Notes under the pieces: generated by a model
What the model was told of the DNA's origin: nothing
The model's input: the letters and a program-made list of their open reading frames with translations, nothing else
Databases searched by the model: none
In this document: positions 14,354 through 20,631 of the stretch, in pieces
How positions within the stretch are numbered: position 1 is the stretch's first letter
How the letters are laid out: each line of letters starts with the position of its first letter
Source of the DNA: Alphaproteobacteria bacterium
GTDB lineage: Bacteria > Pseudomonadota > Alphaproteobacteria > Rs-D84
DNA length: 64,000 bases
NCBI GenBank assembly: GCA_017535105.1
Contig: JAFXUI010000001.1
Span: forward strand, 80,945 to 144,944
Direction: 5' to 3'
Position numbers and translations under genes: made by a program

Positions 14354-14448
14354 ATCTAAATCCTTTTTGCAGGGGTGATTATACATGCTTTTTCTAAAAA
14401 ATCAAATAATTATTATATTTTTTGTTGTTTTTATTGTACCTGTTTATA

Positions 14449-14643
14449 TTGTTGAAAAAAGTTATTAGTAATTTTTTAACAAGTTTTTAACAATTTTTTC
14501 CCAGAAATCTAATATTTTTTAACAAATTGTTGAAAAAATAATCATTATTTTAACATGTTGAAAAATACCTATTTTTGAACCAAATAAACTTTTTCATAAA
14601 AACACTTTTTATACTTGTTAAAAATTGTTGAAATTATTATAAT
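14449..14643 (+). promoter_or_regulatory. AT-rich control region upstream of virB3: four copies of TTGTTGAAAAA (14449, 14527, 14555, 14625), interleaved TTAACAA motifs, promoter TTGTTA(14616)-16 nt-TATAAT(14638)
   Basis: Direct repeats seen in sequence; -35/-10 spacing 16; GGAGAG RBS before ATG 14663. Confidence 0.45.
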
Positions 14644-17984: not shown

Positions 17985-17988
17985 CAAA

Positions 17989-18010
17989 AACCGCCAAGAT
18001 GGCGGTTTTT
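17989..18010 (+). terminator. Bidirectional rho-independent terminator
   Basis: AAAAACCGCCAAGATGGCGGTTTTT. Confidence 0.65.
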
Positions 18011-18027
18011 ATGTACATAGCGACTTT

Positions 18028-18282
18028 TTATTTTTGATTATCTGGGTTATTTGGGTCATCGTGAATATATTTTACAAAGTCATCAATCTTTTGTCCGGTC
18101 GAAGATAAAATCTTGGCAATACTGCCGGTTGATGGCCAACGTGGTTGACCAAATTTTGACCAGCGTTTGCTTTTATTAAATGTTGTTGGGTCTAAACCAC
18201 TTGACCGCGCAAGGCCCGAACAAGACATTCCGTGTTCGCACGCAAATTTTTCAATTGCCAACCATATCTGATCATGTGTCAT
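18028..18282 (-). CDS. Small HTH DNA-binding protein, phage CI/LexA-N-terminal-like family (paralog 1)
   Basis: 84 aa from ATG 18282 with GGGGAGAG RBS: MTHDQIWLAIEKFACEHGMSCSGLARSSGLDPTTFNKSKRWSKFGQPRWPSTGSIAKIL...; no peptidase S24 domain. Confidence 0.7.
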   Translation of the reverse strand: MTHDQIWLAIEKFACEHGMSCSGLARSSGLDPTTFNKSKRWSKFGQPRWPSTGSIAKILSSTGQKIDDFVKYIHDDPNNPDNQK

Positions 18283-18359
18283 TTTTCTCTCCCCGTTTTT
18301 GTTTTTCGGAACAGTTGAATTATGTGGCAAAAAAAGGCTTATTTTCAATAGGTTGGTTA

Positions 18360-18367
18360 TCCTAGGA
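18360..18367. promoter_or_regulatory. Palindromic motif TCCTAGGA (CCYAGGAA half-site family) upstream of paralog 1
   Basis: Perfect 8-nt palindrome about 78 bp upstream of the minus-strand HTH gene start. Confidence 0.3.
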
Positions 18368-18541
18368 AATATTAGAACAAATAAAAATGATGATATGTTT
18401 TTATAAAAATACATAAAATATATTAGGAAAAATTGTCAATTTATAATAGATATTTATGTGCTGTATGTACCTGTTTTCCAAGTTTTTTTAATATAACGAT
18501 TCCTTTTTTAGAAACCCATTACATAAAAATGGGATAACAAA

Positions 18542-18565
18542 AATTCCCAGGAATTAAAATATAAT
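18542..18565 (+). promoter_or_regulatory. Operator-like palindrome AATTCCcaGGAATT abutting -10 TATAAT (18560-18565) of paralog 2
   Basis: 6-nt perfect arms with 2-nt centre, immediately upstream of TATAAT and 32 nt before AAGGAG-ATG of gene 18597. Confidence 0.4.
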
Positions 18566-18596
18566 GGACCGCGGTCATACAAAAAAGGAGATTAAA

Positions 18597-18824
18597 ATGA
18601 CTCATCAAGAGATCTGGCAAGCCATTGATAATTTCGCTTTTCAGCAAAAGATGTCTTGTTCTGGATTAGCAAAATTTGCAGGTTTAGATGCGACAACATT
18701 TAACAAAAGCAAACGTTGGTCTAAATATGGACAACCGCGGTGGCCGTCCACAGGCAGTATTGCCAAAATATTAAACTCTACGGGGAAAACAATAAGCGAT
18801 TTTATAAAATGTATTTGTGACTGA
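18597..18824 (+). CDS. Small HTH DNA-binding protein, paralog 2 of 18028..18282 (divergently oriented)
   Basis: 75 aa from ATG 18597 (AAGGAG 6 nt upstream): MTHQEIWQAIDNFAFQQKMSCSGLAKFAGLDATTFNKSKRWSKYGQPRWPSTGSIAKIL...; about 75% identical to paralog 1. Confidence 0.7.
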   Translation: MTHQEIWQAIDNFAFQQKMSCSGLAKFAGLDATTFNKSKRWSKYGQPRWPSTGSIAKILNSTGKTISDFIKCICD

Positions 18825-18868: not shown

Positions 18869-19627
18869 ATGTCTACATTAAAATCAAAAATACTTTTATT
18901 GAAAGAACTATTGGCACTGAAGGAAGTTGTTGATAAGGGTAGTATCCAAACCGCCGCTGGTGAAAACGGCATTAAAAATTCTAATCTATCCACTTTGATT
19001 AAAAATTTGGAAGATAGATTTAATACTAAACTTATCAACCGTGGTGTCGGTGGCAGTCAACCGACAAATTCAACCCAGATGATATACAACGATATTTGTG
19101 CCATAGAAGAAATACTTAACAAAATCACAGAAAACTTTGTTGATATGGACTCTTTGTCTGGGTCTGTTTCTGTCTGGACAGAAGAGGGCTTAATCGGCAG
19201 TTTTATTCTTAAAGATTTGTCAGAGTTTTATGCGAAATATCCAAAAATTCGTCTTGAATTGTTGATGAAGCAAGAACCCGATATTTCCACAATGGATATT
19301 TTGATTATCAAATCAAAAATTCACCCAAATATTCATGGGCATATTTTGTTCAAGTTCAAGACATCGCTGAAATTCTATGCAAGTAAAAAATACCTTAATG
19401 AACGCGGCGTTCCGAAAAACATAAACGATTTATTGGAAAATCACGATTTGTGTATGTCAAGTCGCTATATGAATTTACCGGAATACAAGGGGTTGATGAA
19501 ACGGGCAAAGCACCTGAATACCACATCAGATTCACTGGCGTTGATATACCGACTTGTTAATGATGGTGATGGTATAACGTTTTCCCATCGTGGTTTGAAG
19601 AATGCAGTAAAGAACTTGTGTGTTTAG
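18869..19627 (+). CDS. LysR-family transcriptional regulator, apparently frameshifted (C-terminal about 45 aa continue in another frame to 19770)
   Basis: N-terminal HTH LKELLALKEVVDKGSIQTAAGENGIKNSNLSTLIKNLEDRFNTKLINR; LysR substrate-binding domain; downstream frame encodes ...ELVCLEDLDFNFETEIQCICRTEIAESPKVQAFVNFFIDF, a typical LysR C-terminus. Confidence 0.65.
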   Translation: MSTLKSKILLLKELLALKEVVDKGSIQTAAGENGIKNSNLSTLIKNLEDRFNTKLINRGVGGSQPTNSTQMIYNDICAIEEILNKITENFVDMDSLSGSVSVWTEEGLIGSFILKDLSEFYAKYPKIRLELLMKQEPDISTMDILIIKSKIHPNIHGHILFKFKTSLKFYASKKYLNERGVPKNINDLLENHDLCMSSRYMNLPEYKGLMKRAKHLNTTSDSLALIYRLVNDGDGITFSHRGLKNAVKNLCV

Positions 19628-19787
19628 AAGATTTAGATTTTAATTTTGAAACTGAAATTCAGTGTATTTGCCGAACGGAAATCGCCGAATCACCAAAGGT
19701 CCAGGCATTTGTGAATTTCTTTATAGATTTCTGCACCGGCCACAATGTTCCAATTGATATTTATTATTGATGGAAAAAGGAAAATAA

Positions 19788-20324
19788 ATGAAAATATATT
19801 TTGATATGGACGGAGTGTTGGCGCATTTTGATGCTATGCGTCCAAACGATAAAGATTTGAATCATCCAAGTGAAGATTTATCGCCAGAAAAACGTATTGC
19901 AAAGAAGTTATTCTGGCAGGAAATAGAAAAACAACCGAATTTTTGGCGCGATATCCCAGTGATGCCGAATACTGAAAATTTGTTAACGACCGCGTTTGAT
20001 ATGGGGGAAATATTTGTTCTTAGTAAAACACCAGGGGCTAAAAAGTTTATTGGTGGTCAAAAATATGTTGACTTTGTTGCAAATGAAAAACGTAAATGGA
20101 TAGCAAAACATTTAAATAAATTTTTTGATGAAAAACATGTGATTATTTGTGATGGATATAAGGGTGAATTAATGCATCCTCTGAAAACAGATATATTGGT
20201 TGATGATAGACAAGAAAATATAAAAGAGTGGGAATCATACGGTGGAGTTGGTGTTTTGTTTACCAATGCGGTTGATACAGCAAAAAGGTTGCTTTTACTA
20301 AAAAGTCGTACAAACATAAAATAA
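19788..20324 (+). CDS. HAD-superfamily 5'(3')-deoxyribonucleotidase (NT5C family, phage-associated type)
   Basis: MKIYFDMDGVLAHFD motif I (DxDGV), 178 aa, AAAAAGGAAAA RBS. Confidence 0.7.
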   Translation: MKIYFDMDGVLAHFDAMRPNDKDLNHPSEDLSPEKRIAKKLFWQEIEKQPNFWRDIPVMPNTENLLTTAFDMGEIFVLSKTPGAKKFIGGQKYVDFVANEKRKWIAKHLNKFFDEKHVIICDGYKGELMHPLKTDILVDDRQENIKEWESYGGVGVLFTNAVDTAKRLLLLKSRTNIK

Positions 20325-20341
20325 GATTCTTTAACTAATTC

Positions 20342-20372
20342 AAAAGTGGTGAAAATCGCCACTTTTATTTTT
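20342..20372 (+). terminator. Rho-independent terminator after NT5C gene
   Basis: AAAAGTGGTGAAAATCGCCACTTTTATTTTTAG. Confidence 0.6.
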
Positions 20373-20373
20373 A

Positions 20374-20390
20374 GGGTGGAGAGTGGATTT
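20374..20390. repeat. Duplicate of tRNA-fMet 3'-end segment (13-nt exact match GGAGAGTGGATTT to 20562-20574); att-like scar
   Basis: GGGTGGAGAGTGGATTT versus tRNA region TGGTTGCGGAGAGTGGATTT; a chance 13-mer match in 64 kb is expected about 0.002 times. Confidence 0.5.
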
Positions 20391-20524
20391 CCCTCGGCAT
20401 AAATGCCTGCGGGCAAATTTGTAGTTGCTTGAACTTCGCTTGCGCTTGTTCTCGCATACAAATTTTGAACCGGCAACTGCGTTGCGGGTCGCAAACCACG
20501 TCCAACAACAAATTAAATAAAAAA

Positions 20525-20547
20525 CACGCCACAAGGGCGTTTTTTTA
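20525..20547 (-). terminator. Terminator downstream of tRNA-fMet (bidirectional hairpin)
   Basis: ACGCCACAAGGGCGT flanked by A-run and T-run. Confidence 0.6.
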
Positions 20548-20554
20548 TTTAAAC

Positions 20555-20631
<77 letters not shown>

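What the first reader, a model, noticed from the sequence alone, without database searches (positions are those of the whole stretch)
18028..18824. Divergent pair of paralogous small HTH regulators (about 75% identical) sharing CCYAGGAA-type palindromes in their common control region
Two proteins of 75 and 84 aa (MTHxxIWxAIxxFAxxxxMSCSGLAxxxGLDxTTFNKSKRWSKxGQPRWPSTGSIAKIL) are encoded head-to-head 315 bp apart. They resemble the N-terminal DNA-binding domain of CI/LexA-like repressors but lack the S24 peptidase domain. The intergenic region holds a perfect TCCTAGGA palindrome (18360-18367) and AATTCCcaGGAATT (18542-18555) abutting the -10 of the plus-strand gene, plausibly auto-operator sites. 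The pair lies between the virB3/B4 operon and the LysR/NT5C genes, so it may be the control switch of a decayed mobile element or of the T4SS genes.
Basis: partly seen in the sequence, partly recalled or inferred. Interest (0 to 1): 0.5.

Follow-up and report, generated by a model that had tools for sequence, protein, structure and literature searches.

The report
Two small CI-like regulators, shared operator
Two head-to-head genes in an uncultured gut alphaproteobacterium encode small DNA-binding proteins descended from phage-repressor-like regulators that have lost their self-cleaving domain, and each promoter carries a rare, widely conserved palindrome that most likely lets the proteins control their own expression; it is an ordinary kind of regulatory module and shows no sign of controlling the neighbouring secretion genes.

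Summary
A (18028-18282, minus strand, 84 aa) and B (18597-18824, plus strand, 75 aa) are 72% identical, sit head-to-head 314 bp apart, and both palindromes are present.

Both have a Cro/CI (XRE) helix-turn-helix fold. They belong to an alphaproteobacterial family whose typical member is about 210 aa with a C-terminal S24 peptidase domain. A and B lack that domain.

They are old paralogues, not a recent duplication. A falls in a stand-alone clade. B falls in a clade that always has a LysR gene immediately downstream. The head-to-head layout occurs only in this lineage.

The palindromes are conserved far beyond chance. TCCYRGGA occurs 45 times in 634 kb of related loci, about 38 of them within 120 bp upstream of a family gene. 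The half-site TAGGAA is 56-fold enriched there and is depleted genome-wide.

The site lies at about -50 in A-type promoters and between -35 and -10 in B-type promoters. The best reading is auto- and cross-regulation by A and B. Binding itself is inferred, not shown.

Control of the T4SS is not supported. The motif is absent upstream of virB3 in 48 related loci, and a bidirectional terminator separates A from the virB genes.

This is a new member of a known kind.

The parts
18028..18282 (-). Gene A: 84-aa S24-less CI-type HTH protein (stand-alone 'A' clade of the family)
   Evidence: ORF and translation. Weak HTH_26 match. AF2 model pLDDT 87.5 with an XRE fold. 85-90% identical orthologues. Clade placement. 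The 128-aa ORF from 18414 that some gene callers use is an over-extension: every homologue starts at MTH.
18597..18824 (+). Gene B: 75-aa paralogue (LysR-linked 'B' clade), probably co-transcribed with the LysR gene 44 bp downstream
   Evidence: B-clade orthologues are followed by a 75-89% identical LysR gene in every one of 13 independent loci.
18359..18368 (.). Operator-like palindrome O_A (aTCCTAGGAA), 11 nt upstream of the -35 of the A promoter, centre about -51
   Evidence: Conserved in L004/L005 and L009-L012. The same element, TTCCTAGGAA, lies 8 nt upstream of the -35 in about 30 species of the related G clade.
18319..18348 (-). Predicted sigma-70-type promoter of A: TTGAAA (18348-18343), 18-nt spacer, CATAAT (18324-18319)
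   Evidence: Consensus scan, 10 of 12 positions. The same architecture is seen in L009 and, as TTGTTG-N17/18-TAAAAT, across the G clade. No transcription start site data.
18424..18429 (+). Extra TAGGAA half-site in the middle of the spacer (TTAGGAAAAA)
   Evidence: One of only 4 TAGGAA in the 64 kb window. A TTTTAGGAAAAAA is also present in the otherwise diverged middle of the L004 spacer.
18504..18542 (+). Conserved block upstream of the B promoter: a degenerate copy (TTTTTAGAAAC...GGGATAACAAAA) of the TTTTATAC-N19-GTATAAAA dyad found only in LysR-linked (B and C clade) promoters. Candidate LysR site.
   Evidence: Alignments of B- and C-clade upstream regions and conservation against L004. 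Assigning it to LysR is inference from co-occurrence only.
18542..18555 (.). Operator-like palindrome O_B (AATTCCCAGGAATT), in the spacer between a poor -35 and the -10, centre about -24
   Evidence: TTCCYRGGAA is at the same position (-47 to -53 from the ATG, 4-6 nt before TATAAT) in 7 B-clade loci from different species.
18560..18565 (+). -10 hexamer TATAAT of the B (B-LysR) promoter
   Evidence: Invariant in all 11 B-clade upstream regions aligned. Not called by the scan tool because the -35 is poor.
18869..19770 (+). LysR-type regulator gene linked to B. Here it is frameshifted by a 1-nt deletion near 19579, giving 252 aa instead of 300.
   Evidence: HTH_1 and LysR_substrate matches. tblastn shows the C-terminal 63 aa continuing in another frame. 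Alignment with the intact allele. The truncated allele is in L093, L098 and L101; the intact allele is in L094 and L099.
17986..18010 (.). Bidirectional intrinsic-terminator hairpin between the virB3-virB4-203-aa operon and the 3' end of A
   Evidence: Fold energies -14.7 and -17.9 kcal/mol, z-scores -5.1 and -6.1, with U-runs on both strands. The simple scan did not call it.

Best explanation
A and B are two anciently diverged paralogues of a small (75-85 aa) Cro/CI-type helix-turn-helix regulator family of uncultured gut Alphaproteobacteria (Candidatus Enterousia and relatives). The family derives from the alphaproteobacterial HTH+S24 (lambda CI-like, COG2932) repressors by loss of the self-cleaving S24 domain.

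Their recognition region (GLDPTTFNKSKR) is nearly invariant. I infer that, as dimers, both read the same family-specific dyad TTCC-YR-GGAA (half-site TAGGAA), which marks the promoters of family genes and almost nothing else.

In this locus one dyad sits just upstream of the -35 of the A promoter (centre about -51), a position where bound protein could activate or mildly repress. The other sits between -35 and -10 of the B promoter (centre about -24), where bound protein should repress. The 314-bp spacer would then be an auto- and cross-regulatory node that sets the levels of A and of the B-LysR transcript.

B belongs to the subfamily permanently coupled to a LysR-type regulator. A second conserved dyad upstream of B is probably the LysR site, which would make B the signal-responsive copy. 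That LysR gene is frameshifted in this strain.

Shown: homology, fold, loss of S24, clade structure, and conservation, position and specificity of the motifs. Inferred: which protein binds which site, the sign of regulation, and dimerisation.
For: - **Fold and homology.** AF2 pLDDT 87.5 with XRE-family top matches. The exhaustive profile search finds 1183 cluster representatives, mostly 200-220 aa carrying Peptidase_S24. A is 52% identical to the N-terminus of a 218-aa S. meliloti protein.
- **Conservation of the DNA-reading residues.** T33, F35, N36, S38, K39, R40 and the RWPST loop are invariant.
- **Motif specificity.** 45 TCCYRGGA in 634 kb, about 38 of them within 120 bp upstream of a family gene. 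TAGGAA/TTCCTA occurs at 5.7 per kb in the 200 bp upstream of family genes against 0.10 per kb elsewhere, and 65 of 87 genes have at least one.
- **Depletion.** TAGGAA is depleted in the window: 4 observed, 15 expected.
- **Fixed positions relative to promoters**.
- **Phylogenetic footprint** in the orthologous spacer.
- **Wider family.** AGGAA/TTCCT dyads also lie upstream of S24-bearing members in Rhizobiaceae and in provirus-derived loci: 13 loci in 20 kb upstream sequence against 2 occurrences in 347 kb of background.
- **Paralogue clades and LysR linkage**.
- **The B/C-specific TTTTATAC-N19-GTATAAAA dyad**.
Against: - No binding data exist.
- A 10-bp palindrome puts the half-site centres only about 6 bp apart, which is tighter than classic CI/Cro operators. 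Some XRE proteins such as MqsA do use short-spaced dyads (from memory, not tested here).
- In about a third of related promoters only the right half (TAGGAAAT.GT.CTTGTTG) survives. That could mean an asymmetric promoter or activator element rather than a dimer operator.
- Without the S24/CTD dimerisation domain, dimer formation is unproven.
- LysR or another unseen factor could be the protein that binds.
- Only the neighbourhoods of family genes were sampled, so a wider regulon cannot be excluded.
Confidence: 0.6

Rival explanations
1. The TTCC-YR-GGAA dyads are bound by the linked LysR-type regulator, or by another global factor, rather than by A or B. The small HTH genes would then be its targets.
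For: B- and C-clade genes are always next to a LysR gene, in the classic divergent LTTR-target layout for most of clade C (9 of 12 loci; the other 3 have LysR downstream). Loss of the left half-site in many promoters fits an asymmetric site.
Against: The dyad is most regular upstream of G- and A-clade genes, which have no LysR neighbour. LysR-linked promoters carry their own separate dyad, absent from G and A promoters. The dyad persists in strains whose LysR is frameshifted. AGGAA/TTCCT dyads also accompany S24-bearing family members in unrelated genomes with no LysR nearby.
Confidence: 0.15
2. The pair is the control switch of the adjacent type IV secretion genes (virB3-virB4), analogous to EcxR/ApxR/wBmxR1-2 of Rickettsiales.
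For: A lies 44 bp from the end of the virB3-virB4-203-aa operon. This adjacency is kept in L004/L005 and in all strains of the species. A 1-mismatch site, TTCCCAGAAA, lies at 14498 upstream of virB3. wBmxR1 and wBmxR2 are a precedent for two paralogous small XRE factors that cross-bind each other's promoters and T4SS promoters (PMC3518464).
Against: No dyad with up to 1 mismatch lies within 400 bp upstream of virB3 in 48 related loci, including the 95%-identical L104. One-mismatch hits are at chance level in the window: 8 observed, 4.9 expected. A is convergent with the operon and separated from it by a bidirectional terminator. A-clade genes in L009-L012 and all other clades lie elsewhere. 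EcxR relatives are homologues of PDB 2o38, which the family profile does not detect even at E<=10.
Confidence: 0.07
3. The pair is the immunity region (a CI/Cro-like bistable switch) of a decayed prophage or other mobile element.
For: The layout is divergent, with operators in a shared control region. Elsewhere the family is tied to phage-derived genes: G-clade genes head a cluster with a T7-like scaffold and capsid in about 47 species, and 77 of 80 IMG/VR loci have an S24-bearing member next to a T7-like portal-scaffold-capsid module. An NT5C gene and tRNA-Met lie just downstream, and L003 has an integrase at the corresponding place.
Against: No phage, integrase or transposase genes flank the pair. 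The surroundings (dnaG, ychF, virB3/4, lpxK, lpxC, pilus genes) are syntenic core genes across strains and in L004/L005. No homologue of the scaffold, capsid or other cluster genes is present in the 64 kb window. A and B are each other's paralogues rather than a CI and an unrelated Cro, and they sit at separate loci in other genomes. No match in 50,697 GenBank phage genomes.
Confidence: 0.1

Closest known systems
Alphaproteobacterial HTH+S24 proteins (COG2932, 'phage repressor protein C with HTH and peptidase S24 domains'; lambda CI-like architecture)
   Same: Direct sequence homologues of the whole length of A and B. Identity is 52% to a 218-aa S. meliloti protein, with the same MxTHxxxWxAI...GLDPTTFNKSKR...RWPST motifs. 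AGGAA/TTCCT dyads lie in their own upstream regions.
   Different: A and B stop right after the HTH domain. They have no S24 autoprotease/dimerisation domain, so RecA-triggered self-cleavage is impossible. Half-site arrangement also differs: TTCC-N2-GGAA here, against AGGAA-N4..12-TTCCT or TTCCT-N6-AGGAA in S24-bearing members. As far as I could find, no member of this branch has been characterised experimentally.
Small stand-alone XRE/Cro-type autoregulators with solved structures (ClgR, restriction-modification controller C-proteins such as C.Esp1396I, HipB)
   Same: Best structural matches, TM about 0.6 over about 71 residues. They are 75-95 aa, bind palindromes in or next to their own promoters, and one site position can activate while another represses.
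   Different: Only 17-23% identity. A and B carry an insertion of about 8 residues (WSKxGQPRWPST) between the recognition helix and helix 4. No restriction-modification, clp or toxin genes are adjacent.
EcxR / ApxR / wBmxR1-wBmxR2 (Rickettsiales regulators of T4SS genes)
   Same: Small XRE-type proteins in reduced alphaproteobacterial genomes. In Wolbachia two paralogues bind each other's promoters (PMC3518464), which is the regulatory logic proposed here.
   Different: A different XRE branch: homologues of PDB 2o38, which the A/B family profile does not detect. No operator lies at virB promoters here.
SciP (Caulobacter CtrA antagonist, 93 aa HTH)
   Same: A small, highly conserved alphaproteobacterial HTH protein.
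   Different: No evidence of membership. The S. meliloti chromosome record has a single tblastn match to A, the 218-aa S24 form. The published SciP motifs (GTTAACCAT, TGTCGCG; PMC4083442) are unrelated to TTCCYRGGAA. The SciP sequence itself was not available to me.

Membership tests
CI-like HTH+S24 repressors (COG2932 branch of Alphaproteobacteria) | N-terminal Cro/CI-type (XRE) helix-turn-helix domain | tested here: met
   AF2 model pLDDT 87.5. Foldseek top hits are all XRE-fold proteins, probability 0.97-1.0 and TM about 0.6. HTH_26 matches at E 0.003 and 0.018 are below the gathering score.
CI-like HTH+S24 repressors (COG2932 branch of Alphaproteobacteria) | Sequence homology to bona fide HTH+S24 proteins | tested here: met
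   The profile search returns mostly 200-220 aa proteins at E 1e-26 to 1e-29. Several carry Peptidase_S24. 52% identity to a 218-aa S. meliloti protein.
CI-like HTH+S24 repressors (COG2932 branch of Alphaproteobacteria) | C-terminal S24 autopeptidase / dimerisation domain | tested here: not met
   A ends at residue 84 and B at residue 75, both directly after helix 5. No S24 match. The same holds for more than 500 close relatives of 75-90 aa.
CI-like HTH+S24 repressors (COG2932 branch of Alphaproteobacteria) | Binds dyad operators at its own promoter | tested here: inconclusive
   There is a conserved, family-specific dyad at fixed promoter positions. Protein-DNA binding cannot be tested with these tools.
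LexA | Winged-helix LexA_DNA_bind domain plus S24 domain | tested here: not met
   No LexA_DNA_bind or S24 match at E<=1. The fold is XRE, not winged helix.
EcxR/ApxR/wBmxR T4SS regulators | Homology to EcxR and PDB 2o38 (37-44% identity among members, PMC3518464) | tested here: not met
   phmmer and the family profile against all PDB sequences at E<=10 do not return 2o38.
EcxR/ApxR/wBmxR T4SS regulators | Target sites in virB promoter regions | tested here: not met
   The dyad (up to 1 mismatch) is absent within 400 bp upstream of virB3 in 48 related loci. This tests the cis-element only, not binding.
SciP | Orthology to Caulobacter CC_0903 (93 aa; chromosomal orthologues exist in Sinorhizobium) | tested here: inconclusive
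   Indirect test only. A 3.7-Mb S. meliloti chromosome record gives a single tblastn match, the 218-aa S24 form. No SciP sequence could be obtained for direct comparison.
Restriction-modification controller (C) proteins / toxin-antitoxin XRE antitoxins | Encoded next to the R-M genes or the toxin gene they control | tested here: not met
   The neighbours are virB4, a 203-aa protein with no Pfam match, LysR and NT5C.
LysR-type regulator (the gene downstream of B) | HTH_1 plus LysR_substrate domains, about 300 aa | tested here: met
   HTH_1 E 4e-10 and a weak LysR_substrate match. The intact 300-aa alleles in L094 and L099 carry both domains. The window allele is frameshifted.

The most novel reading that the evidence does not exclude
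The family may be the dedicated regulator of a vertically inherited, phage-derived T7-like portal/scaffold/capsid gene cluster. That cluster is widespread in Alphaproteobacteria and might be an unrecognised type of gene-transfer-agent-like element. S24-bearing members sit divergently next to it. In the 1-Mb gut lineages an S24-less member heads it. A and B would then be spun-off paralogues that read the same TAGGAA operator, which has been purged from the rest of the genome. Through the LysR-coupled copy they would feed an environmental signal into control of that element located elsewhere in the chromosome.
Probability: 0.2. Interest if true: 0.6.

Novelty: new member of a known kind. Interest (0 to 1): 0.33.

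Why it matters
The locus itself is a small autoregulatory module of a familiar type, so its direct importance is modest.

It does give a clean, testable handle on an uncharacterised and very conserved regulator family in abundant but uncultured gut and rumen Alphaproteobacteria with genomes of about 1 Mb. Family members are 65-90% identical across many species.
- There is a defined 10-bp operator that is almost exclusive to the family's own promoters.
- There are several paralogue clades per genome.
- One clade is hard-wired to a LysR regulator.

It also shows how a CI-type, damage-cleavable repressor can be converted into a non-cleavable housekeeping regulator. And it points to a conserved phage-derived capsid cluster that the family may control.

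Tried and rejected
**SciP hypothesis.** I suspected the family might be SciP.
- The two founding papers are not held, and PMC4083442 has no supplementary files held.
- A profile search seeded with high-GC short forms returned mostly partial fragments of S24 proteins and no SciP names.
- The S. meliloti chromosome gave only the 218-aa S24 form.
- Rejected as unsupported, though not directly disproved.

**EcxR/wBmxR identity.** Rejected because there is no link to PDB 2o38.

**T4SS control.** Rejected on motif absence and gene and terminator layout.

**Known RNA element in the spacer.** An Rfam scan found nothing near any gathering score. The fold of the B leader is only mildly stable (z -2.4).

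**Sigma-54 reading of TAGGAAATGGTGCTTGTTG.** The GG-to-GC spacing does not fit. The conserved TAAAAT 17-18 nt downstream fits a sigma-70 promoter.

**Other negatives.**
- NCBIfam has no model for the family.
- GenBank phage genomes have no homologue.
- PDB has no sequence relative.
- The literature search for a known T7-like GTA in Alphaproteobacteria was unproductive.

Full report
**1. What is in the sequence**

Gene A (18028-18282, minus strand, 84 aa) and gene B (18597-18824, plus strand, 75 aa) both begin MTH... and each has a GGAG-type ribosome-binding site 7-8 nt upstream. BLASTP gives 54/75 identities (72%), E 7e-41.

The 314-bp spacer holds TCCTAGGA at 18360-18367 and AATTCCCAGGAATT at 18542-18555. 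The second ends 4 nt before a TATAAT at 18560-18565.

TCCYRGGA occurs three times in 64 kb, two of them here; 0.94 are expected.

The locus is real and stable. The same pair with the same neighbours occurs on at least ten independent metagenome contigs up to 166 kb long.

**2. What the proteins are**

Pfam gives only sub-threshold HTH_26 (Cro/C1-type) matches. NCBIfam gives nothing and PDB sequences give nothing.

An AlphaFold2 model built on 41 homologues is confident (pLDDT 87.5). Its best structural matches are all XRE-fold proteins: ClgR, the restriction-modification controller C.Esp1396I, HipB and a prophage Lp1 protein (TM about 0.6). So the domain is Cro/CI-type, not the LexA winged helix.

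Relative to canonical XRE domains there is an insertion (WSKxGQPRWPST) between the recognition helix and helix 4.

A word-indexed search finds 566 close relatives, nearly all 75-90 aa and 65-90% identical. Where a source is named, they come from uncultured gut Alphaproteobacteria, 'Rickettsiales' or Candidatus Enterousia.

An exhaustive profile search finds 1183 cluster representatives. Most are 200-220 aa and carry a C-terminal Peptidase_S24 domain.

A 218-aa S. meliloti protein is 52% identical to A over its whole length and continues into an S24-like domain.

**3. Paralogy and gene context**

A scan of species-representative genomes returned 80 loci. All come from gut or rumen MAGs, and one is a closed 0.96-Mb chromosome.

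A neighbour-joining tree together with neighbour analysis resolves five clades.
- **Clade G** is the majority. It stands at the head of a conserved co-directional cluster: a 139-aa protein, a BirA-like ligase, a T7-like scaffold and a capsid.
- **Clade A** contains window A, L004 and L009. It stands alone.
- **Clade D** also stands alone.
- **Clade B** contains window B. It always has a 75-89% identical LysR gene 40-100 bp downstream, in 13 independent loci.
- **Clade C** has a 44-50% identical LysR gene, divergent or downstream.

Single MAGs often hold two or three clades on different contigs.

The head-to-head A/B layout is found only in this species and in L004/L005. A and B are old paralogues brought together here, not a local duplication.

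**4. The palindromes are conserved operators**

Aligning the spacer with L004/L005 shows two conserved blocks, each containing one palindrome, around a diverged middle.

Across 634 kb of non-redundant related loci there are 45 TCCYRGGA, about 38 of them within 120 bp upstream of a family gene.

The half-site TAGGAA/TTCCTA occurs at 5.7 per kb in the 200 bp upstream of family genes against 0.10 per kb elsewhere. Sixty-five of 87 genes have at least one. In the window it occurs 4 times against 15 expected, two of them in this spacer.

Positions are fixed.
- **G and A clades:** TTCCTAGGAA, then 8 or 11 nt, then TTGTTG or TTGAAA (-35), then 17-18 nt, then TAAAAT or CATAAT. The dyad centre is at about -48 to -51.
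- **B clade:** TTCCYRGGAA lies between a poor -35 and an invariant TATAAT, centre about -24.

Promoters lacking the full palindrome keep the right half, TAGGAAAT.GT.CTTGTTG.

S24-bearing members in Rhizobiaceae and in provirus-derived loci also have AGGAA/TTCCT dyads upstream: 13 loci in 20 kb of upstream sequence, against 2 occurrences in 347 kb of background.

The recognition region (T33, F35, N36, S38, K39, R40) is invariant.

Taken together, the most economical reading is that family proteins bind their own promoters. Binding itself is inferred, not shown.

**5. Likely logic at this locus**

A site centred near -51 can activate or weakly repress. A site inside the -35/-10 spacer should repress. 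I therefore propose auto- and cross-regulation of the A promoter and of the B-LysR promoter by A and B.

B- and C-clade promoters, and only those, carry a second dyad, TTTTATAC-N19-GTATAAAA, just upstream. By co-occurrence this is a candidate LysR site. In the window it is degenerate (18504-18542).

The window's LysR has a 1-nt deletion near 19579 that truncates it to 252 aa. The same allele is in three other assemblies, and two others have the intact 300-aa gene. The LysR input therefore seems dispensable or decaying in this species.

**6. T4SS and mobile-element ideas**

A is convergent with virB3-virB4-203aa, and a strong bidirectional terminator hairpin (17986-18010) separates them.

The only near-match upstream of virB3, TTCCCAGAAA at 14498, is within chance for 1-mismatch hits. 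No dyad with up to 1 mismatch occurs within 400 bp upstream of virB3 in 48 related loci, including the 95%-identical one.

EcxR, ApxR and wBmxR1/2 are the known small XRE regulators of Rickettsiales T4SS genes. They are homologues of PDB 2o38 (PMC3518464), which the family profile does not detect. They remain a useful analogy, since two paralogues bind each other's promoters, but A and B are not members.

The flanks are syntenic core genes (dnaG, ychF, lpxK, lpxC, pilus genes) without integrase or phage genes. No homologue of the G-clade cluster genes lies in the window. The pair is not a visible mobile-element remnant here.

**7. SciP**

I tested the idea that this conserved small HTH protein is SciP. 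I could not obtain the SciP sequence.

The S. meliloti chromosome record matches A at one place only, the 218-aa S24 form. Published SciP motifs are unrelated to the dyad found here. Membership is unsupported.

**8. Verdict**

This is a real, conserved regulatory module of a familiar kind: small XRE-type autoregulators with dyad operators. It belongs to an uncharacterised S24-less branch of CI-like repressors.

Interest is moderate to low for the locus itself.

The family-wide features are the more interesting leads.
- The operator is almost private to the family's own promoters.
- Several paralogue clades coexist in genomes of about 1 Mb.
- One clade is hard-wired to a LysR regulator.
- There is a recurrent association with a T7-like portal/scaffold/capsid module.

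Noticed in passing
window 18869-19770 (deletion near 19579): The LysR gene downstream of B carries a 1-nt deletion (GG to G) that shifts the frame, giving 252 aa instead of 300. The same truncated allele is in L093, L098 and L101, while L094 and L099 have the intact gene. It is therefore a real strain polymorphism, not a sequencing error.
   Followed up: yes
L006 6001-12246; L013-L066 and L073 (about +300 to +4200 from the family gene); L161-L165: In about 47 species-level genomes the G-clade family gene heads a conserved co-directional cluster. It holds a 139-aa protein with no Pfam match, a BirA-like ligase (PF03099), a 136-181-aa protein, a T7-type scaffold (PF05396) and a capsid (PF19821, 80-95% identical between species). 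The cluster looks vertically inherited, and IMG/VR flags it as viral. It is not present in the window.
   Followed up: partly
L166-L240 (IMG/VR loci): In 77 of 80 viral-collection loci, most of them (L166 onward) holding an S24-bearing family member, a T7-like scaffold is adjacent, with a portal (PF12236) in the 72 non-gut loci and a capsid in many (57-63% identical to the gut capsid). In the non-gut loci the module is transcribed divergently from the family gene. Many come from predicted proviruses of about 18 kb in isolate genomes, with the regulator at the edge. This may be a widespread phage-derived element with its own CI-like regulator. I found no literature on it.
   Followed up: partly
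window 18504-18542; L007, L053, L058, L063, L076, L087-L091 upstream regions: B- and C-clade (LysR-linked) promoters share a long dyad, TTTTATAC-N19-GTATAAAA, that is absent from the other clades. It is a candidate LysR binding site. It is degenerate in the window lineage, where LysR is decaying.
   Followed up: partly
whole window: The hexamer TAGGAA is strongly depleted: 4 occurrences on both strands against 15 expected from dinucleotide-preserving shuffles. Two of the four lie in the A/B spacer. This may reflect general CTAG avoidance or selection against off-target sites.
   Followed up: partly
window 14440-14640: The AT-rich region upstream of virB3 contains four direct copies of (T)TGTTGAAA(AA) spaced roughly 30-80 bp apart. 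Their function is unknown and I did not examine them in relatives.
   Followed up: no
window 19788-20631: An NT5C-type 5'-deoxynucleotidase gene and a tRNA-Met (20555-20631, minus strand) follow LysR. NT5C is absent at this place in L004/L005. In L001-L003 the B-LysR module borders integrase and defence-type genes (AAA_15/21, methyltransferase, SocA_Panacea). The site downstream of LysR looks like an insertion hot spot.
   Followed up: partly
window 18501-18509 and 18581-18589: TCCTTTTTT is perfectly complementary to the AAAAAAGGA that overlaps B's ribosome-binding site. The CCyTTTTT element is conserved in B-clade loci. It would matter only if a transcript starts upstream of the predicted promoter.
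   Followed up: no
L083 4001-4526; L091 4001-5043: L083 has two family genes in convergent orientation only about 50 bp apart. L091 has a second, much more diverged tandem copy (about 50% identity). The family therefore duplicates locally in other lineages too.
   Followed up: no
window 18028-18414; L093, L094: Automatic gene callers annotate gene A as a 128-aa protein starting at the upstream ATG (18414). That start would run through the A promoter and the palindrome. All homologues and the ribosome-binding site support the 84-aa form.
   Followed up: yes
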